A stretch of DNA of 64,000 nt from the human T2T-CHM13v2.0 reference genome, Homo sapiens, in assembly GCF_009914755.1 (NCBI RefSeq), contig NC_060930.1; one strand, given 5' to 3'. A program made the translations under genes and the position numbers. Positions 53,678 to 57,541 of the stretch are shown here, one piece after another (position 1 is the stretch's first letter; every line of letters starts with the position of its first letter). The notes under the pieces are model-generated. The model was not told where the DNA came from and did not search any database. It worked only from the letters and a program-made list of their open reading frames with translations.

Positions 53678-53713
53678 TCAATCTGGACTTTCAACCTTAG
53701 GACTTGTGATGTT
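53678..53713 (-). CDS. BNIP5: BNIP5 last coding exon
   Basis: tctttttctcttcccag|AAC; NITSPKVESPD then TGA; 36 nt. Confidence 0.87.
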   Translation of the reverse strand, partial: NITSPKVESPD

Positions 53714-54747
53714 CTGGGAAGAGAAAAAGAACATAGGTGTTAGCCACAGCTCAATTATTTATGGGTTCATTCTGGAAACAACAGACTTCCCATTATCCCA
53801 TTGACACCCCACCCCAGCCTCCATCTCTGGGTCTTTGTTCTTGCAACACCTCCTGCTGACACTGTTCTCCTGATCCTTTCTCCCCAGACAGCCTCCCCAT
53901 TCTCAAAGGTCAAAATCAGCAACTCCACCTCCTGGAAGGCTCCCAGGACCTACTTGCTTCATGGGCCTCAGCTACCACTCATTTGGTATTTGGTTGCTAT
54001 TTAATTTTGTCATCAAACTGTTGTCTTTTCCATTGGCAGATGAAGCCTTTGAAGGCAGAACCTTCCACAGAGCCTCACAGCCCTTTGCACAACTAAGCAC
54101 ATAGGAGGCTGTCAATAGCTACCAGTTAAATGAATGAATGAATGAATGAATGAATGGTTAGTAAAACCAGAAGATGGAGTCAGGGCAACTGAGGATGTCA
54201 GAACTGATGTTTCTATAATATCTTTCACGAATAACTCAGATCGATCTGTAAGCTATTACCTAAGCCACCCTAGAGGGCAAATTATCTGTAACATTCCTAT
54301 TCTCTAGGAGAAGACAGTGAAGCCAAGGAGAGAGAGAGGTCCATGGTAAGGAGGATTTCTGACCAGGAAAATGAACCGAAGTAGAGGAGAGCATTTGAAT
54401 GACAAGATACAACTACCATGAAATAAGCCAGCTCTCTTGAGAGACTTTTCAAATGGCTTCTAAAGGTAATTCCAAGAAAGACAGAAGTGTTTCGGGTGAT
54501 AGTAGCATCATTGCAAAAGGTTTCCCAGGGGACCACTTGGATGTAGAAGTTCCGGTCCTGTTTGTCCAACACCAGCAAACAGAACATTTCATTCCTCTAA
54601 AGTTACACCTTCATTCAGAGGCTTCTACGCTGTGGATCTGGGTCAAATGTTTGTAAGCAGGTTATGTTAAGTGAATTAGAAAAGGATGAAGAAATCTTTA
54701 TCAGAGTCCACCAGAAAATATGAGAGCTCAGAATTTTTAAAAAATCA

Positions 54748-55053
54748 GGCCAGCTGTGGTGGCTCATGCCTGTAATCCCAGCACTTTGGGAGGCCAAGGT
54801 GGGAAGATTTCTTGTGGCCAGGAGTTCAAAAGCAGCCTGGTCAACATAGTGAGAATCCATCTCTATACCAAAAAAAAAAAAAAGAAAATTTAAATTAGCT
54901 AGGCGTGGTGGCATGCTCCTGTAGTCCCAGCTACTTGAGAGGCTGAGGTGGGAGGATCATCTGAGCCCAGGAAGGTTGAGGCTGCAGTGAACCGTGATTA
55001 CACCACTGCACTCCAGCCTGGGTGACAGAGCAAGACCCTGTCTCAAAAAAAAA
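54748..55053 (+). mobile_element. Alu (J-like) in the last BNIP5 intron
   Basis: Dimeric Alu; TSD aaaaaatcag. Confidence 0.88.
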
Positions 55054-55677
55054 TCAGTGACAAGCATCATCTCTGAAGGGAATATCTCAGAGACTTGGGG
55101 GAGGCGAAATTATTAGGAAAAGCATAAATGCACTCAGAACAGTGAAGGTGACGGCAGGAGAGAGGCTGTTCATTAAGCAACCAAGGCCAGGTCAGTGAGT
55201 GATCGCCTCCTGGAAGCCTTCCAGAACCAACAGCCCATGGAGCCTTCTTGTCTATCTCAGCCACCCCTTATTTGATAGATAACCTTACTTTGTTATTTAC
55301 ATTTTATGACAGCCTAGAATTGAGAAGCCAAGCAACAGAGCCCACAAAATAATAACAAGGCAAGCTAAGATCGTAGCCAGTCCAATATGCCATTCTATCA
55401 AAAAGCATGGAAATGTACATGTAATTGAAGACTAGAGCCAAATAAACAAGATGTTAATTATGGAGTAAAATCAGTGAGGTTTCAGAAAAGAAAAAGGTTG
55501 TCATGGTTTAGAATTGTCTCAGAAGGCCTCAGTGAGGAGGTGACATTTGAGATAGACCCAAAAATTCTGAACTGAGCAGGGGAGGGGAGAGGAGGATAAG
55601 TAGATCCCACTGGAGGCCAGCTGTGAGCCTGCTGTCACTCATGCTACATTGCCATTGTCTTCCCCGCCCTCTCTCAC

Positions 55678-55932
55678 CGGCTGGTCCTCCCTGTATGGGA
55701 ACTGGGTGCAATTGTAGTGGTCTCTTAGGCCCATGAGGATGCACATGGCATGGCTGTTGCTGCCAGCAAATTTGTTAGCTAAGCTAACGTCAAACTGGTA
55801 GAGTCTCCTGGCGCGGTTCCTGTCCAGCTTAGAGGAGTGAGCCACCTGGCTGCGCAGGGTGGCTACCAGCTTGCTGAGGGAGGAGTCCGAGAACTCGTAA
55901 AAAAACCTCTTAAAGCTGGGGTGGCGCCTGAT
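55678..55932 (-). CDS. BNIP5: BNIP5 penultimate exon (helical Bcl-G-like segment)
   Basis: cacttccag|ATC ... CCG|GTGAGA; 255 nt, phase 0-0; [23 protein letters not shown]...[26 protein letters not shown]. Confidence 0.92.
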
Positions 55933-56489
55933 CTGGAAGTGGAAATGAAAACAGGTCATTAGTGTTGCTGGCAGTACCCCTCCCGCCAACTGCCCCTCCC
56001 ACAACTCCATGCAGCCAGGCGGGGCACTCCTTGTCCCTGGGATGAGCTCCCCTTGTTACATCCCTCCACTGCCCCTAGCCTCTCAGAATCTGTTCTGCGA
56101 GGTCCAGCTCAAAGCAGCAGGACAAAGTAGAGGGCAAGGGTGGAAGTACAGGTCTTTAGACTCAGATAATTCAGAAGCAAACACCCCACAGAGTCTTCTC
56201 GTCTACCCTAGCCATTCCATATTTGACAAATAATCATACTTTATTATTTAAATGTATAACAGTCTAGAATTGGGATGCTTAAGTTGCACTTACTATGTGT
56301 GTGAGCCTCTGGTCATCCATAAAATGTAAAGTATCCACCCAACCCCAGGATTGCTGGGCGGGGATTGGAGGGGTGGGGAATGAAATGAGAGAATTTATAT
56401 AAAATGTTTAGTACAGGAATGTTTAGTACAGATGTTAGAGGAATTTAATTCCTTCTAAGCCTCCTCCAACAAGCTCCTTTCTCTTAATA

Positions 56490-56920
56490 ACTAAATGGGT
56501 TCCCCAGAGGCAGACCCAGACACAAGGACTTGGGTACAGGCATTTTATTCATTAAATGATCCCAGGAAATGCTAATGGAAGAATGAGACCTGGAACAAGA
56601 ATGGGAAGGCGGCCCAGGGGGTGGCAACTGGAGCTTAATCCACTCAGGGCACCTTGGGAGCTCGCTGAGAGCACATTCCTCAGTTATACCCCACAAAGGC
56701 AAGGGAGCTGGGGTCTCTATCCACCAACTCCCACCAGCCATTGGTTGAGGGTTGCTCATGGGGAAGTGGAGGCTGTTAATTCTGCCCCCCACATGAGTTG
56801 CAAAATGGCCCTGGGTCCTCAGGCACAAGGAGGCAGGTGCTGGCAGCTGGATGGGCCAGCGTGCACTCTGGTGGTGAAGAGAGGCACCCAGAGCGTCCGC
56901 TATGCTGATTACTCATCTTT
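56490..56920 (-). mobile_element. LTR33-like ERVL LTR remnant
   Basis: ttccccagaggcagaccc...caaggac...tttatt...gatcccaggaa motif. Confidence 0.5.
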
Positions 56921-57476
56921 AACCTGACCTCTTCACATGTGATCTGTGTTTGTCTCTCAAAGTAGGCTGTGTTTTCCAAGGGTGGGGAACCTTCTGTTAC
57001 AGACTGCCTATCAGGGGAGAAAATCAACAAGCTTGAAAGAATGAGAGACCACATAAATGCTGAAGAGCACGGCAAGACCGAGAGTGAACCCGGAGACCAC
57101 AGGGAATGGAATCAGCCGGGCGGGTGGGGCCAGGAGTGGCCAGGTGTGGGCGGAGGAGGCTTCCAAGGACGGGGGACATGAGCCGAACTTCAATAGCTGA
57201 TTTGGACAGGAGTGGTCCTGGCTGGGGCAGGGAGGCCACATGAGCGTTGTGTTATTTTAAACAGTTCCCTCATCTGCTACATGTCTGGCGTTTTCTACAT
57301 ATGCACTAAGCTTGGTCAAGTAGGTAATTCTCTCTCATTTTGGAAAAGAGGAAACCGAGACTCAGAGAGGTTAAGGGACATGCTCAAAGTTGCCCAGAGG
57401 TGCAGACTTGGGGATGGAACCCAGGTGGGTAGATGAGGCCCTGGGGTTGGCCTGGGGAGGGCTGAGTGGTACTCAC

Positions 57477-57541
57477 CTGCTGCCCCAGTTGGCCATCCAC
57501 TTCTTGGAGAAGTGCCACAAGCTTCTGGATGATGATCTCCT
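57477..57541 (-). CDS. BNIP5: BNIP5 exon, cassette 3a (BH3-like helix)
   Basis: tttccttag|AG ... CAG|GTGAGT; 65 nt, phase 1-0; K-EIIIQKLVALLQEVDGQLGQQ. Confidence 0.9.

What the first reader, a model, noticed from the sequence alone, without database searches (positions are those of the whole stretch)
53678..57541. BNIP5 C-terminus looks like a decayed Bcl-G (BCL2L14)-type Bcl-2 domain
Seen: spliced C-terminus [44 protein letters not shown]...[26 protein letters not shown]...|NITSPKVESPD. From memory of BCL2L14 (ILAKIVELLKYSGDQLERK...LSYSVFKTI...DVTAKLTAIDNHPMNRVLGFGTKY...EEVD), the BH3 helix, the S-x-S helix and the H-x-M-x-x-x-x-G-x-x-x-x-Y segment align. The BH2 (WIQQHGGW) has no counterpart here. 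The cassette-1 BH3 ([11 protein letters not shown]) is even closer to the Bcl-G BH3. The layout of a short BH3 exon, a ~260-nt exon and a tiny last exon resembles what I recall for BCL2L14. BNIP5 neighbours ETV7 (outside this window) as BCL2L14 neighbours ETV6. Inference: BNIP5 is a paralogue or ohnologue of Bcl-G rather than a simple BH3-only protein.
Basis: partly seen in the sequence, partly recalled or inferred. Interest (0 to 1): 0.72.

Follow-up and report, generated by a model that had tools for sequence, protein, structure and literature searches.

The report
BNIP5 is a decayed Bcl-G/BCL2L12 paralogue
The end of the human BNIP5 gene is a worn-down copy of the helical domain of the cell-death regulators Bcl-G (BCL2L14) and BCL2L12, so BNIP5 is their third sister gene and not a free-standing "BH3-only" protein.

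Summary

- **Gene layout.** The last three coding exons of BNIP5 (65, 255 and 36 nt; intron phases 1, 0, 0) mirror BCL2L14 (71, 267, 39 nt) and BCL2L12 (92 or 68, 273, 51 nt). The intron that splits BH2 in Bcl-2 family genes falls at the matching place.
- **Direct comparison fails.** Human exon against human exon gives nothing by BLASTP, and mammal-only profiles are weak (P about 0.02-0.04).
- **Bridging sequences.** BNIP5 orthologues of birds, turtles, amphibians and lungfish link the families. Many of them are auto-named "Bcl-2-like protein 14".
- **Profile comparisons.** Mammal BNIP5 matches non-mammal BNIP5 at 99.4%, BCL2L12 at 98.2% and BCL2L14 at 97.2%. Column shuffles never exceeded a score of 21, against real scores of 31-84.
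- **Tree.** There are three clades, each with support of 100/96 or better. Mammal BNIP5 is nested on a long branch.
- **Position.** The three genes lie on three of the four TEAD/CDKN1 paralogous regions. ETV7 precedes BNIP5 as ETV6 precedes BCL2L14.
- **BH2.** It is absent from all true BNIP5 sequences.
- **Still open.** No Bcl-2 fold could be shown for the human module, and BCL2L12 may be as close a sister as Bcl-G.

The parts
57477..57541 (-). Third BH3-like exon (65 nt, intron phases 1 to 0). It sits in the ancestral position directly before the domain exon. Its core is degenerate (V-D-G instead of G-D).
   Evidence: splice sites, phase. Same phases as the BCL2L14 BH3 exon (71 nt) and the BCL2L12 BH3-like exon. 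It shares 7 of 20 residues with BCL2L14 and 8 of 20 with BCL2L12. No PDB match. A canonical L-x3-[GAS]-[DE] core is present in 9 of 58 mammal modules against 110 of 114 non-mammal BNIP5 modules.
55678..55932 (-). Domain exon (255 nt, phase 0 to 0). It encodes the remnant of the helices that follow BH3 in Bcl-G and BCL2L12. The BH2 part at its end is lost.
   Evidence: Pfam gives only PF15661. Collinear from exon start to exon end with the 267-nt BCL2L14 exon and the 273-nt BCL2L12 exon. hhalign. AF2 helices 18-26, 28-35, 39-56, 63-77 and 83-89, with pLDDT 74-79 over the first 50 residues and below 50 from residue 94.
53678..53713 (-). Last coding part (11 codons plus stop), the short tail exon that ends in ...SPD.
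   Evidence: It follows a phase-0 intron at the place of the BH2-splitting intron. The counterparts are 39 nt in BCL2L14 and 51 nt in BCL2L12. The SPD end is found in 50 of 58 mammal and 93 of 114 non-mammal BNIP5.
63320..63384 (-). Cassette-1 BH3 exon (65 nt, phase 1 to 0). This is the canonical BH3 that was crystallised with BAK.
   Evidence: 21 of 21 residues identical to PDB 8igc chain B 'Protein BNIP5'. 11 of 20 identical to the Bcl-G BH3 exon. hhalign 26 columns, 50% identity, P 5.9e-5.
60451..60512 (-). Cassette-2 BH3-like exon (62 nt, phase 1 to 0), the most degenerate copy.
   Evidence: 4 of 20 and 2 of 20 identities. Nucleotide identity to the other two BH3 exons is 58-62%.
62800..63043 (-). 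Basic exon of cassette 1 (244 nt, phase 0 to 1). It carries the K/R-rich ...S-L-K-R... and ...F-L-P-L-C motifs that non-mammal BNIP5 and BCL2L12 carry once, upstream of their BH3.
   Evidence: 71% nucleotide identity to the cassette-2 copy. Direct repeat D1, 62790-62903 against 59605-59718, 84%.
59615..59855 (-). Basic exon of cassette 2 (241 nt), a duplicate of 62800-63043.
   Evidence: hhalign of mammal against non-mammal BNIP5 finds the basic-linker-BH3 stretch more than once.
61573..61704 (-). Linker exon of cassette 1 (132 nt, phase 1 to 1).
   Evidence: 56% nucleotide identity to the cassette-2 copy.
58633..58764 (-). Linker exon of cassette 2 (132 nt, phase 1 to 1).

Best explanation
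BNIP5 is one of three vertebrate paralogues, together with BCL2L14 (Bcl-G) and BCL2L12. All three descend from one gene whose C-terminal module had three parts: a BH3 helix on its own short exon, an exon of about 260 nt encoding the following helices up to BH2, and a short acidic tail exon.

**History.**
- Shown: the BH2 motif was lost early in the BNIP5 lineage, and it is absent from bird, turtle, amphibian and lungfish orthologues.
- Shown: on the branch to mammals the module then evolved very fast.
- Inferred (from the unnamed sister sequence P0207, which has one BH3): in placentals the block BH3 exon + basic exon + linker exon was copied, which gives three BH3-type exons.
- Shown, taking the solved structure together with the published work: the first copy kept the canonical BH3 and is the one that binds BAK.
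- Shown: the copy in the ancestral place, together with the 255-nt exon and the 36-nt tail (the stretch of this finding), is the remnant of the ancestral domain.

**How the remnant works (inferred).** In human BNIP5 it no longer forms a complete Bcl-2-like bundle. Its first half, the BH3-like helix plus two or three short helices that are nearly invariant in placentals, survives as a small helical element with a regulatory or binding role. The BAK-directed activity has moved to the cassette-1 BH3.

**Origin (inferred).** The three genes are most likely ohnologues from the early vertebrate genome duplications.
For: **Gene structure.** The phases are 1/0/0 in all three genes. Exon sizes are 65/255/36 nt (BNIP5), 71/267/39 nt (BCL2L14) and 92 or 68/273/51 nt (BCL2L12). 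In 13 of 13 human PF00452 matches that reach the end of the model, the match ends ...GGW followed by gt. The BCL2L14 exon is one of them, and two others are probably processed copies of BAK1. The BCL2L12 exon also ends HGGW|gt.

**Bridging sequences.** A joint-profile search of 1.84 billion representatives gave 184 hits at E <= 0.001, of which 150 were listed. They include proteins of about 350-450 aa that score with both mammal-only HMMs, for example P0213 with 40.4 bits (BNIP5) and 79.0 bits (BCL2L14). With the BH3 removed, the 25 proteins of this class score 21.5-55.7 bits with the BCL2L14 HMM, 21 of them 30 bits or more.

**Names.** These are bird, turtle, crocodilian, amphibian and lungfish proteins named BNIP5 or C6orf222 homolog, and very often 'apoptosis facilitator Bcl-2-like protein 14'. 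There are also read-through models named ETV7 that carry PF15661 + PNT + Ets. A second class is named bcl-2-like protein 12 (frogs and squamates).

**Pfam CF222 (PF15661).** It passes its cut-off of 27 bits in 6 of 6 BNIP5-clade proteins tested (5 named non-mammal orthologues at 41-100 bits, the unnamed P0207 at 179 bits) and in 2 of the 5 proteins I submitted as BCL2L12-type (Xenopus 36.8, Anolis 38.0); one of those five, P0295, is in neither tree.

**Search of the human genome with an owl protein.** Owl BNIP5 searched against the human genome finds the BCL2L14 exon first (E 2.9e-7, 37% identity over 82 aa) and does not find human BNIP5 at E <= 10.

**hhalign on independently aligned sets (after I removed one misfiled row).**
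- Mammal BNIP5 against non-mammal BNIP5: 99.4%.
- Mammal BNIP5 against BCL2L12: 98.2%.
- Mammal BNIP5 against BCL2L14: 97.2%.
- Non-mammal BNIP5 against BCL2L14: 99.9%.
- Non-mammal BNIP5 against BCL2L12: 99.7%.

**Full-length comparisons.** Non-mammal BNIP5 aligns with BCL2L12 over 323 columns and with BCL2L14 over 208 columns.

**Careful ML tree (62 rows, 126 columns).** BNIP5 100/97, BCL2L14 100/96, BCL2L12 100/99. Mammal BNIP5 (100/98) is nested in the BNIP5 clade on stems of 0.90 + 0.93 changes per site.

**Predicted helices.** The six AF2 helices of the BNIP5 module fall on the first six helices of the BCL2L14 module when mapped by hand through the alignment.

**BCL2L14 is itself Bcl-2-like.** Its profile matches Bcl-xL residues 84-191 (best E 3.8e-4), and all 60 rows shown are Bcl-2 family. 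The Foldseek rows shown (ranks 1-50) are all Bcl-xL, Bcl-2, A1 or a nematode Bcl-2.

**Paralogous regions on the same genome.**
- ETS exons of ETV6 and ETV7.
- CDKN1A, B and C at chr6:36.50, chr12:12.59 and chr11:2.97 Mb.
- TEAD genes at chr6:35.31, chr12:3.0, chr19:52.36 and chr11:12.9 Mb.
- BAK1 at chr6:33.39 Mb and BAX at chr19:51.95 Mb (gene names recalled from the BH2 sequences).

**Function, from print and PDB.** The central BH3 is necessary and sufficient for BAK inhibition, and the C-terminal BH3 motif is dispensable (Ruehl et al. preprint, passages). The cassette-1 exon is identical to the BNIP5 peptide of PDB 8igc.
Against: - Human-to-human comparison shows nothing. BLASTP of the BNIP5 exon against the BCL2L14 or BCL2L12 exon gives no alignment at E <= 100.
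- The 85-aa exon finds only itself in the genome.
- Mammal-only profiles reach only P 0.016-0.035, with probabilities of 1.5-2.8%.
- With BH3 removed, mammal BNIP5 against BCL2L14 reaches only 68.4%. The link therefore rests mainly on the bridging orthologues.
- Those bridging proteins were found with a joint profile that held both families. They were then tested with separate models.
- Most representatives carry no name, and I placed them by the tree and by motifs.
- No Pfam Bcl-2 match for any of the 8 BNIP5 exon translations at E <= 10.
- BNIP5 HMMs score at most 4.7 bits on 10 human Bcl-2 family exon ORFs.
- The AF2 model of the human module is of low confidence (pLDDT 61.8, pTM 0.44). Its fold searches give only generic helical matches (best Foldseek E 4.0; best VIA Z 6.2, rmsd 2.8, 55 aligned).
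- The tree is unrooted, so it cannot say which two of the three genes are sisters.
- Dating to the vertebrate genome duplications is inferred from human chromosome positions only. No shark, lamprey or invertebrate gene was examined.
- The role of the remnant in the human protein is inference. The only functional datum is that it is dispensable for BAK inhibition.
Confidence: 0.88

Rival explanations
1. BNIP5 is the sister of BCL2L12, not of Bcl-G. The reader's pairing with BCL2L14 would then be only a cousin relationship within the same three-gene family.
For: - Non-mammal BNIP5 aligns with BCL2L12 over almost the whole length (323 columns, 99.7%, E 3.4e-26). With BCL2L14 it aligns over the C-terminal 208 columns.
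- The alignment with BCL2L12 includes shared N-terminal and basic motifs.
- Pfam CF222 passes its cut-off in Xenopus and Anolis BCL2L12 but in 0 of 4 BCL2L14 proteins tested.
- Mammal BNIP5 scores higher with BCL2L12 than with BCL2L14: 83.9 against 65.8 for the module, and 43.5 against 30.8 after BH3.
- The cassette-3 BH3-like exon shares 8 of 20 residues with BCL2L12 and 7 of 20 with BCL2L14.
Against: - The ETV6 and ETV7 neighbours pair BNIP5 with BCL2L14. No ETV6-type ETS exon pair was found near BCL2L12 in that search.
- A canonical BH3 core is shared by non-mammal BNIP5 (110 of 114) and BCL2L14 (171 of 176) but not by BCL2L12 (3 of 21).
- After the misfiled row was removed, the non-mammal BNIP5 module scores higher with BCL2L14 (191.8) than with BCL2L12 (150.7).
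- Owl BNIP5 finds human BCL2L14 in the genome and not BCL2L12.
- The tree is unrooted and cannot decide.
Confidence: 0.4
2. Only the BH3 motif is shared, as a short linear motif that can arise by convergence. On this view the resemblance downstream of BH3, the exon layout and the neighbours are coincidence, and BNIP5 is a true BH3-only protein of separate origin.
For: - Human exon pairs show no BLASTP similarity.
- Mammal-only profiles are significant only at the BH3 (P 5.9e-5, against 0.035 for the whole C-terminus).
- Print describes BNIP5 as highly disordered and BH3-only (Aguilar et al. preprint, passages).
Against: - Comparisons restricted to the part after BH3 remain strong through the orthologues: mammal against non-mammal BNIP5 98.4% (E 4.5e-15), and non-mammal BNIP5 against BCL2L14 99.7% (E 2.8e-26). 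Shuffles reach at most 19.6.
- Three matching intron phases and near-equal exon sizes in three genes.
- Full-length collinearity with BCL2L12.
- Position on paralogous chromosome regions.
Confidence: 0.03
3. The human C-terminal module is not a relic but still a working folded domain. It would be a small Bcl-2-derived bundle in which the third BH3-like helix is packed against the following helices, as BH3 is in Bcl-2 homologues and BID, and it would control localisation, stability or exposure of the active BH3.
For: - The first half of the module is nearly invariant in 43 aligned placental sequences, with invariant L9, L13, I24, R26, P28, S29, L42, K44, L45, L49 and G91.
- AF2 predicts six helices in the same places as in BCL2L14, with pLDDT 74-79 over residues 1-50.
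- The SPD end is kept in 50 of 58 mammal sequences.
Against: - pTM is 0.44, and pLDDT is below 50 for residues 57-65 and 94-117.
- The region between ...LMG.R and ...FPY.E carries lineage-specific insertions and deletions.
- Truncations that remove the C-terminal BH3 motif still block BAK-dependent death (Ruehl et al., passages).
- The fold searches give nothing specific.
Confidence: 0.3

Closest known systems
BCL2L14 (Bcl-G), human chr12p13, next to ETV6
   Same: - BH3 on a short exon with phases 1 to 0.
- A following phase 0-to-0 exon of 267 nt against 255 nt.
- A short tail exon ending in D.
- Alignment collinear from BH3 to the end.
- Six predicted helices in the same places.
- An ETV6/7-type ETS gene upstream on the same strand.
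- Both genes came out of the same screen as inhibitors of BAK-dependent death, and the authors noted BH3 homology (Ruehl et al.).
   Different: - BCL2L14 keeps BH2 (170 of 176 modules), weak Pfam Bcl-2 matches (18-24 bits) and sequence matches to Bcl-xL 84-191.
- BNIP5 has none of these.
- BNIP5 is twice as long and has three BH3-type exons in placentals.
- BNIP5 ends in SPD and not EEVD.
BCL2L12, human chr19q13.33
   Same: - Same exon pattern: a BH3-like exon ending phase 0, a 273-nt phase 0-to-0 exon, and a 51-nt tail.
- Frog and squamate BCL2L12 align with non-mammal BNIP5 over 323 columns, including N-terminal, basic and helix motifs.
- Pfam CF222 passes its cut-off in Xenopus and Anolis BCL2L12.
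- A non-canonical BH3-like helix resembling BNIP5 cassette 3.
   Different: - BCL2L12 keeps BH2 (21 of 21).
- It has a single BH3-like helix.
- No ETV6/7-type neighbour was seen.
Classical BH3-only proteins (BIM, PUMA, NOXA and others)
   Same: In the human protein the only part with a shown activity is a BH3 helix that binds BAK, and the protein is mostly predicted disordered.
   Different: BNIP5 is not of separate origin. Its BH3 and the following exons descend from a multi-helix Bcl-2-like gene, and its non-mammal orthologues keep that helical region well conserved.
BID (a BH3-only protein by function, with a Bcl-2-like helical fold but no BH1/BH2 motifs)
   Same: It is a precedent for a protein that acts through BH3 yet derives from, or resembles, the Bcl-2 fold. 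Weak Pfam BID matches cover the BH3 and following helices in owl, turtle and salamander BNIP5 (16.3-19.7 bits).
   Different: Those matches are below the cut-off of 25 bits. No match to BID was seen for the human exons, and no fold match was shown.

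Membership tests
BCL2L12 / BCL2L14 (Bcl-G) subfamily | BH3 or BH3-like helix on its own short exon, between a phase-1 and a phase-0 intron | tested here: met
   BNIP5 65 nt (three copies, 65/62/65), BCL2L14 71 nt, BCL2L12 92 or 68 nt. All run phase 1 to 0.
BCL2L12 / BCL2L14 (Bcl-G) subfamily | A following phase 0-to-0 exon of about 260 nt whose product aligns collinearly across the family | tested here: met
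   Exons of 255, 267 and 273 nt. MAFFT alignment collinear. hhalign 97.2-99.9% for the module, and 68.4-99.8% for the part after BH3 alone.
BCL2L12 / BCL2L14 (Bcl-G) subfamily | BH2 motif W-x3-GGW at the end of that exon | tested here: not met
   0 of 58 mammal BNIP5 modules and 1 of 114 non-mammal modules. That one, P0390, is a misfiled BCL2L12. By comparison, 21 of 21 BCL2L12 and 170 of 176 BCL2L14 modules have it.
BCL2L12 / BCL2L14 (Bcl-G) subfamily | Phase-0 intron after the domain exon, then a short acidic tail ending in D | tested here: met
   Coding tails of 36, 39 and 51 nt. The last residue is D in 53 of 58, 103 of 114, 21 of 21 and 131 of 176 modules.
BCL2L12 / BCL2L14 (Bcl-G) subfamily | Monophyly of each gene, with BNIP5 as a separate vertebrate-wide clade | tested here: met
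   Careful tree: 100/97, 100/96 and 100/99. Quick tree of 161 rows: 99, 95 and 99. The trees are unrooted, and many rows are unnamed.
BCL2L12 / BCL2L14 (Bcl-G) subfamily | Location on paralogous chromosome regions (ohnologue pattern) | tested here: met
   ETV6/ETV7, CDKN1B/CDKN1A/CDKN1C and TEAD4/TEAD3/TEAD2/TEAD1 lie near the three genes on chr12p13, chr6p21.3 and chr19q13.33, with chr11p15 as the fourth region. Tested in human only.
Bcl-2 homologues (Pfam PF00452, Bcl-2 fold) | Match to PF00452 at or above the gathering score (31.4 bits) | tested here: not met
   No PF00452 match at E <= 10 for 8 of 8 BNIP5 exon translations. None at the BNIP5 locus in the genome-wide scan. BCL2L14 itself reaches only 18-24 bits.
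Bcl-2 homologues (Pfam PF00452, Bcl-2 fold) | Intron splitting BH2 directly after ...GGW, phase 0 | tested here: inconclusive
   The intron is present at the aligned position and phase in BNIP5, within one alignment column, but the motif it splits is gone. In 13 of 13 human PF00452 matches the match ends GGW followed by gt.
Bcl-2 homologues (Pfam PF00452, Bcl-2 fold) | Globular bundle of helices around a central hairpin in a structure or confident model | tested here: inconclusive
   Human BNIP5 module: pLDDT 61.8. Foldseek best E 4.0, with 5 BAK, BAX or BCL2 chains scattered among the rows shown (ranks 1-50). VIA-wide best Z 6.2 (rmsd 2.8, 55 aligned), with no Bcl-2 family chain among the 50 rows.
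BH3-only proteins | A BH3 helix that binds the groove of a Bcl-2 family partner | tested here: met
   The cassette-1 exon is identical (21 of 21) to the BNIP5 peptide chain of PDB 8igc. Binding and activity are taken from print, not tested here.
BH3-only proteins | No homology to Bcl-2-like proteins outside the BH3 motif | tested here: not met
   Homology beyond BH3 to BCL2L12 and BCL2L14 is shown by the profiles restricted to the part after BH3 and by the full-length alignments.

The most novel reading that the evidence does not exclude
BNIP5, Bcl-G and BCL2L12 would be the three surviving ohnologues of one ancestral vertebrate gene whose original job was BAK-selective control: activate BAK and hand it to MCL-1. 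BNIP5 would then be a Bcl-2-fold gene caught in the act of decaying into a 'BH3-only' protein. The BH3 exon of PXT1, on the other side of ETV7, would be a further splinter of the same gene. If so, at least some BH3-only proteins arose by erosion of multi-helix homologues and not by convergence. The BH3-like helix of BCL2L12 should then act on BAK in the same way.
Probability: 0.3. Interest if true: 0.8.

Novelty: new member of a known kind. Interest (0 to 1): 0.66.

Why it matters
- **Classification.** BNIP5 is treated in print as a disordered BH3-only protein of unknown origin. I read passages of two preprints, and neither places it in a gene family. The work here places it in a family with Bcl-G and BCL2L12.
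- **Shared function.** Common descent is a simple explanation for why BNIP5 and Bcl-G behaved alike in a BAK-inhibition screen. It also points to BCL2L12 as a candidate for the same mechanism.
- **Origin of BH3-only proteins.** It gives a concrete example for the old question of whether BH3-only proteins share ancestry with Bcl-2 homologues or only a motif.
- **Annotation errors.** Many bird and lungfish BNIP5 orthologues are named 'Bcl-2-like protein 14', and some gene models fuse ETV7 with BNIP5.
- **Is it in print?** Within the held library I found no statement of this paralogy:
  - 'BCL2L12 + BCL2L14 + paralog': 0 papers.
  - 'Bcl-G + Bcl2L12 + phylogen': 0 papers.
  - 'BNIP5 + BCL2L12': 1 paper, an expression list.
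  - 'BNIP5 + Bcl-G': only the Ruehl preprint.
  - 'BCL2L14 / ETV6 / ETV7 / BNIP5', at least 3 of the 4 terms: 3 papers, none with BNIP5.
- **Limits of that search.** Subscription journals and family databases (Ensembl, PANTHER, InterPro) could not be searched and may already group these genes.

Tried and rejected
**Direct comparisons that gave nothing**
- BLASTP of the human 85-aa exon against the BCL2L14 exon and against the BCL2L12 exon: no alignment at E <= 100.
- Six-frame search of the genome with the 85-aa exon: only itself, plus two chance rows at E 3.35 and 7.72.
- Mammal-only hhalign: weak, P 0.016 and 0.035.
- ESM Atlas with the 85-aa exon: only bacterial clusters at 0.87-0.88, below the level worth following.

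**Fold searches and other homology checks**
- BNIP5 model, Foldseek pdb: best E 4.0, a mixed list.
- BNIP5 model, VIA-wide: best Z 6.2, generic helical matches, no Bcl-2 family chain among the 50 rows.
- BCL2L14 model, VIA-wide: best Z 6.0. Bcl-2, Bcl-xL and BAK appear only at ranks 20-47 with Z 4.8-5.1.
- Profile of non-mammal BNIP5 + BCL2L12 against PDB sequences: no Bcl-2 family match, only the BNIP5 peptide at E 0.79.
- BNIP5 HMMs against 10 human Bcl-2 family exon ORFs: at most 4.7 bits.

**An idea of my own that I dropped**
- I thought the 244/241-nt basic exons might be degenerate copies of the 255-nt domain exon. Their nucleotide identity is 46-47%, against 71% between the two basic exons. 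Non-mammal orthologues also carry the basic motif once, upstream of BH3.

**PXT1**
- Only its BH3 ORF scores with the family HMMs (E 0.018 and 0.029 among 1860 ORFs). There is no trace of the domain after BH3.

- The TEA domain search at E <= 1e-5 found nothing because the domain is split into small exons. It was repeated at E <= 1.
- The first careful tree run did not finish and was completed.
- One row, P0390 (a BCL2L12), had been misfiled among the non-mammal BNIP5 sequences. I removed it and repeated the comparisons. The full-length set had not held it.

**Not available or not used**
- No complex-prediction job was sent, because the report claims no new binding.

Full report
**The observation**

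All eight internal junctions are AG/GT.

The stretch of the finding consists of three pieces:
- a 65-nt exon (57477-57541; intron phase 1 before, phase 0 after) that encodes a BH3-like helix;
- a 255-nt exon (55678-55932; phase 0 on both sides);
- a last coding part of 36 nt (53678-53713).

The same script shows that the nine exons in the window form a repeated pattern. A BH3-type exon (65, 62 and 65 nt) is followed twice by a basic exon (244 and 241 nt) and a linker exon (132 and 132 nt). The third time it is followed by the 255-nt exon.

Pfam sees only its own C6orf222 family (PF15661) in all 8 exon translations. It sees no Bcl-2 family match at E <= 10.

**BCL2L14 read from the same genome, not from memory**

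A scan of the whole assembly with Pfam Bcl-2 (PF00452) gave 16 matches. One was a weak match on chr12 (E 0.19, 23.4 bits, below the cut-off of 31.4).

I fetched 60 kb around it and mapped a gibbon BCL2L14 protein onto it. This gave the coding exons:
- the BH3 exon, 71 nt, with a phase-1 acceptor and a phase-0 donor;
- the next exon, 267 nt, phase 0 to 0, ending ...HGGW directly before gt;
- the last coding part, 39 nt.

The layout 71/267/39 with phases 1, 0, 0 mirrors 65/255/36 with phases 1, 0, 0.

In 13 of 13 human PF00452 matches that reach the end of the model, the match ends ...GGW followed by gt. Two of these look like processed copies of BAK1, because the frame simply runs on. The last intron of BCL2L14 is therefore the family's BH2-splitting intron, and the last intron of BNIP5 sits at the aligned place.

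**Direct similarity is not significant**

- BLASTP of the two human exons gives nothing at E <= 100.
- The 85-aa exon finds only itself in the genome.
The values are only P 0.016-0.035, probability 1.5-2.8%.
- Only the cassette-1 BH3 against the Bcl-G BH3 stands out: 26 columns, 50% identity, P 5.9e-5.

**Bridging sequences**

An unsupervised MAFFT alignment of 16 BNIP5 and 12 BCL2L14 C-termini was collinear from end to end, with two short gaps between the families. I used it as a joint profile against 1.84 billion representatives. It gave 184 hits at E <= 0.001, of which 150 were listed.

I scored these with separate mammal-only HMMs. Besides the two expected families, this showed two further classes.

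*Class 1.*
- About 350-450 aa.
- No BH2.
- They end in ...SPD, as human BNIP5 does.
- They carry a Bcl-G-like stretch (...N-R-I-M-G-F-G-x-x-Y-L...).
- They score with both models, for example P0213 with 40.4 and 79.0 bits.
- With the BH3 cut off, the 25 proteins of this class still score 21.5-55.7 bits with the BCL2L14 model, 21 of them 30 bits or more.

*Class 2.*
- About 400-460 aa.
- They combine a BNIP5-like ...A-G-I-N-S-H-A-V-x-x-L-M-G... stretch with an intact BH2.

The last word-based search gave names.
- Class 1 is the BNIP5 of birds, turtles, crocodilians, salamanders, caecilians, frogs and a lungfish.
  - The names are 'protein BNIP5', 'C6orf222 homolog', or very often 'apoptosis facilitator Bcl-2-like protein 14'.
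  - Several read-through models named 'transcription factor ETV7' carry PF15661 together with the PNT and Ets domains. This puts the gene next to ETV7 in birds.
- Class 2 is 'bcl-2-like protein 12' of frogs and squamates.

**Independent checks of the bridge**

- Pfam's curated CF222 model passes its cut-off (27 bits) in 6 of 6 BNIP5-clade proteins tested. The 5 named non-mammal orthologues score 41-100 bits, and the unnamed P0207 scores 179 bits.
- CF222 also passes in 2 of the 5 proteins I submitted as BCL2L12-type, over exactly the C-terminal module in Xenopus. One of those five, P0295, is in neither tree.
- Frog BCL2L12 searched against the human genome finds BCL2L12 on chr19 (E 1.6e-9) and then the BCL2L14 exon (E 3.4e-4).
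- Owl BNIP5 finds the human BCL2L14 exon first (E 2.9e-7, 37% identity over 82 residues). It does not find human BNIP5 at E <= 10. This explains the automatic names and shows how far the mammalian gene has drifted.

**Profile-profile tests with diverse, separately aligned sets**

| Comparison (BH3 to end) | Probability | E-value | Columns |
|---|---|---|---|
| Mammal BNIP5 (58) vs non-mammal BNIP5 (114) | 99.4% | 3.4e-21 | 124 |
| Mammal BNIP5 vs BCL2L12 (21) | 98.2% | 2.7e-14 | 98 |
| Mammal BNIP5 vs BCL2L14 (176) | 97.2% | 4.5e-11 | 103 |
| Non-mammal BNIP5 vs BCL2L12 | 99.9% | 2.2e-36 | 115 |
| Non-mammal BNIP5 vs BCL2L14 | 99.9% | 1.3e-35 | 122 |

With the BH3 exon cut off, mammal BNIP5 still reaches:
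- 98.4% against non-mammal BNIP5;
- 93.5% against BCL2L12;
- 68.4% against BCL2L14.

Non-mammal BNIP5 without BH3 reaches 99.7-99.8% against both.

*Controls.* I ran thirty column shuffles of the mammal BNIP5 alignment per comparison. They gave scores of 10.9-12.7 on average and at most 20.8, against real scores of 30.8-83.9. The reversed alignment scored 14-15.

*One correction.* One row of my non-mammal set (P0390) turned out to be a BCL2L12. After I removed it, the values were 99.2% against mammal BNIP5, 99.7% against BCL2L12 and 99.9% against BCL2L14.

*Full length.* Non-mammal BNIP5 aligns with BCL2L12 over 323 columns (99.7%) and with BCL2L14 over 208 columns (99.6%). Mammal BNIP5 matches the basic-linker-BH3 stretch of non-mammal BNIP5 more than once, which is the signature of the internal duplication.

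**BCL2L12 gene structure**

In the human genome:
- The BH3-like exon ends in phase 0. Its acceptor is 92 or 68 nt upstream, phase 1 either way.
- The next exon is 273 nt, phase 0 to 0, and ends HGGW|gt.
- The last coding part is 51 nt.

All three genes therefore share the pattern.

**Tree**

A careful maximum-likelihood tree of the module used 62 rows, 126 columns and a site-mixture model. It gives three clades:

| Clade | Rows | Support |
|---|---|---|
| BNIP5 | 27 | 100/97 |
| BCL2L14 | 23 | 100/96 |
| BCL2L12 | 12 | 100/99 |

The mammal BNIP5 sequences (10 rows, 100/98) are nested inside the BNIP5 clade beside sauropsids and amphibians. They sit on two successive stems of 0.90 and 0.93 changes per site, several times longer than other internal branches of that clade.

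A quick tree of 161 rows agrees.

The tree is unrooted, so it does not say which two genes are sisters.

**Motif counts**

| Set | BH2 (W-x(3-5)-GGW) | Canonical BH3 core | Ends in SPD |
|---|---|---|---|
| Mammal BNIP5 | 0 of 58 | 9 of 58 | 50 of 58 |
| Non-mammal BNIP5 | 1 of 114 (the misfiled P0390) | 110 of 114 | 93 of 114 |
| BCL2L12 | 21 of 21 | 3 of 21 | 0 of 21 |
| BCL2L14 | 170 of 176 | 171 of 176 | not among the four commonest endings |

Two conclusions follow:
- BH2 was lost early in the BNIP5 line.
- The BH3 in the ancestral position degenerated only in mammals.

An unnamed sequence (P0207), sister to the placental ones, has a single BH3 that is still canonical. The triplication is therefore probably placental.

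**Chromosome context on the same assembly**

- The ETS exon pairs of ETV6 (chr12:11.753-11.755 Mb, +) and ETV7 (chr6:36.187-36.189 Mb, -) lie upstream of BCL2L14 and BNIP5 on the same strand.
- The CDI domain has exactly three matches: chr12:12.59, chr6:36.50 and chr11:2.97 Mb.
- The TEA domain marks four loci: chr6:35.31, chr12:3.0, chr19:52.36 and chr11:12.9 Mb. BCL2L12 lies at chr19:52.67 Mb.
- BAK1 (chr6:33.39 Mb) and BAX (chr19:51.95 Mb) fit the same pattern. I recall these two gene names from their BH2 sequences.
- I could not check whether any gene lies between ETV6 and BCL2L14, because no annotation of chr12 was at hand.

The three genes thus sit on three of four paralogous regions. 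This is what ohnologues of the early vertebrate duplications look like. It is an inference from one genome.

**Is it a Bcl-2 domain?**

*For BCL2L14, reasonably so.*
- Its profile matches Bcl-xL residues 84-191, from BH3 to BH2. The best E is 3.8e-4, and all 60 rows shown of 115 matches are Bcl-2 family.
- Its AF2 model (pLDDT 73.9) draws only Bcl-xL, Bcl-2, A1 or a nematode Bcl-2 in the Foldseek rows shown (ranks 1-50), with best E 0.03 and probability 0.98. The TM-score is only about 0.3, however.
- Its last intron is the BH2 intron.

*For human BNIP5, the evidence is only transitive.*
- The AF2 model has pLDDT 61.8 and pTM 0.44.
- It has six helices: 2-16, 18-26, 28-35, 39-56, 63-77 and 83-89.
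- Mapped by hand through the alignment, they fall on the first six helices of the BCL2L14 module.
- The part that corresponds to the last helices and BH2 is predicted disordered.
- The fold searches gave nothing specific.

I therefore call it a remnant of the Bcl-G/BCL2L12-type module. I leave open whether it still folds.

**How it most likely works**

*Shown.*
- The cassette-1 exon is identical to the BNIP5 peptide of PDB 8igc (21 of 21). The cassette-3 exon has no solved counterpart.

*From print.* For the Ruehl et al. preprint I saw the abstract, the outline and passages.
- BNIP5 and Bcl-G both came out of a screen as inhibitors of BAK-dependent death.
- The central BH3 is necessary and sufficient.
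- Truncations lacking the C-terminal BH3 motif still protect.
- The authors noted 'significant homology' of the two BH3 domains, but the passages I saw make no paralogy claim.

For the Aguilar et al. preprint I saw passages.
- It describes BNIP5 as highly disordered and BH3-only.

A 2026 paper, of which I also saw passages, states that tandem isoleucines before the BH3 core matter for BAK binding by both Bnip5 and Pxt1.

*Inferred.*
- After the triplication the first copy kept the ancestral BAK-binding BH3.
- The copy in the ancestral place, with its domain, lost that role.
- The first half of the remnant is nearly invariant in 43 placental sequences, so it probably keeps a structural or regulatory role.

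**Novelty**

In the held library I found no statement that BNIP5 is a paralogue of BCL2L14 or BCL2L12. The link is latent in databases, both in the automatic names of bird genes and in the CF222 matches to frog BCL2L12. Family databases and subscription journals could not be checked. I rate it a new member of a known kind.

Noticed in passing
outside the window: G000 chr6 about 36220680-36220812, minus strand (locus L045): PXT1 lies on the other side of ETV7 and has its BH3 on a 131-nt exon with the same intron phases (1 to 0). It starts with the same tandem-isoleucine lead-in as the BNIP5 BH3 exons. This ORF is the best of 1860 ORFs in the 56-kb PXT1 region for the non-mammal BNIP5 HMM (E 0.018) and the BCL2L14 HMM (E 0.029), but only over the BH3. 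It may be a splinter of the same ancestral gene.
   Followed up: partly
window 59605-59718 and 62790-62903: Direct repeat of 114 nt at 84% identity with a spacing of 3185 nt, covering the 3' ends of the two basic exons. The exons of cassettes 1 and 2 are 56-71% identical, and the introns are barely alignable any more. The internal duplication is therefore old.
   Followed up: yes
proteins P0330, P0364, P0252, P0332, P0357 and many others: Public annotation names many bird and lungfish BNIP5 orthologues 'apoptosis facilitator Bcl-2-like protein 14'. Some gene models fuse ETV7 with BNIP5 (PF15661 + PNT + Ets in one protein). These are probably naming and model errors.
   Followed up: partly
L015 (G000 chr22:18369978-18370124): The exon on chr22, which from recall is probably BCL2L13, ends ...F-G-V-T-Y-L-E-D-Y-S-A-E-Y-I-I-Q-Q-G-G-W. 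It is the second-best human hit of the BCL2L14 module HMM (22.3 bits, HMM positions 78-115). It may be the next closest relative of the three-gene family.
   Followed up: no
L007 (chr20:34418943-34419242) and L010 (chr11:130582625-130582888): Two PF00452 matches almost identical to the BAK1 exon on chr6 run on in frame past ...GGW, where BAK1 has its intron. They look like processed copies of BAK1.
   Followed up: no
G000 chr12:11968068-11968106 (BCL2L14 last coding part): BCL2L14 ends in ...EEVD in most mammals (EVD is the last triplet in 95 of 176 modules). From recall, this is the same C-terminal motif that lets Hsp70 and Hsp90 bind TPR co-chaperones. BNIP5 ends in SPD and BCL2L12 in [QI]-[IL]-D.
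   Followed up: no
window 55912-55932 (start of the 255-nt exon, minus strand): The stretch I-R-R-H-P-S-F at the start of the domain exon is nearly invariant in placentals (I24, R26, P28 and S29 invariant in 43 sequences). It is absent from non-mammal BNIP5, BCL2L12 and BCL2L14. Its arginines at -3 and -4 from the serine look like a site for a basophilic kinase; this is inference only.
   Followed up: no
protein P0207 (unnamed representative, 486 aa): This sequence is sister to all placental BNIP5 in the tree. It has a single, still canonical BH3 and its own tandem repeats of a K/D/E-rich unit of about 36 residues upstream. It suggests that the three-cassette form arose only in placentals.
   Followed up: partly
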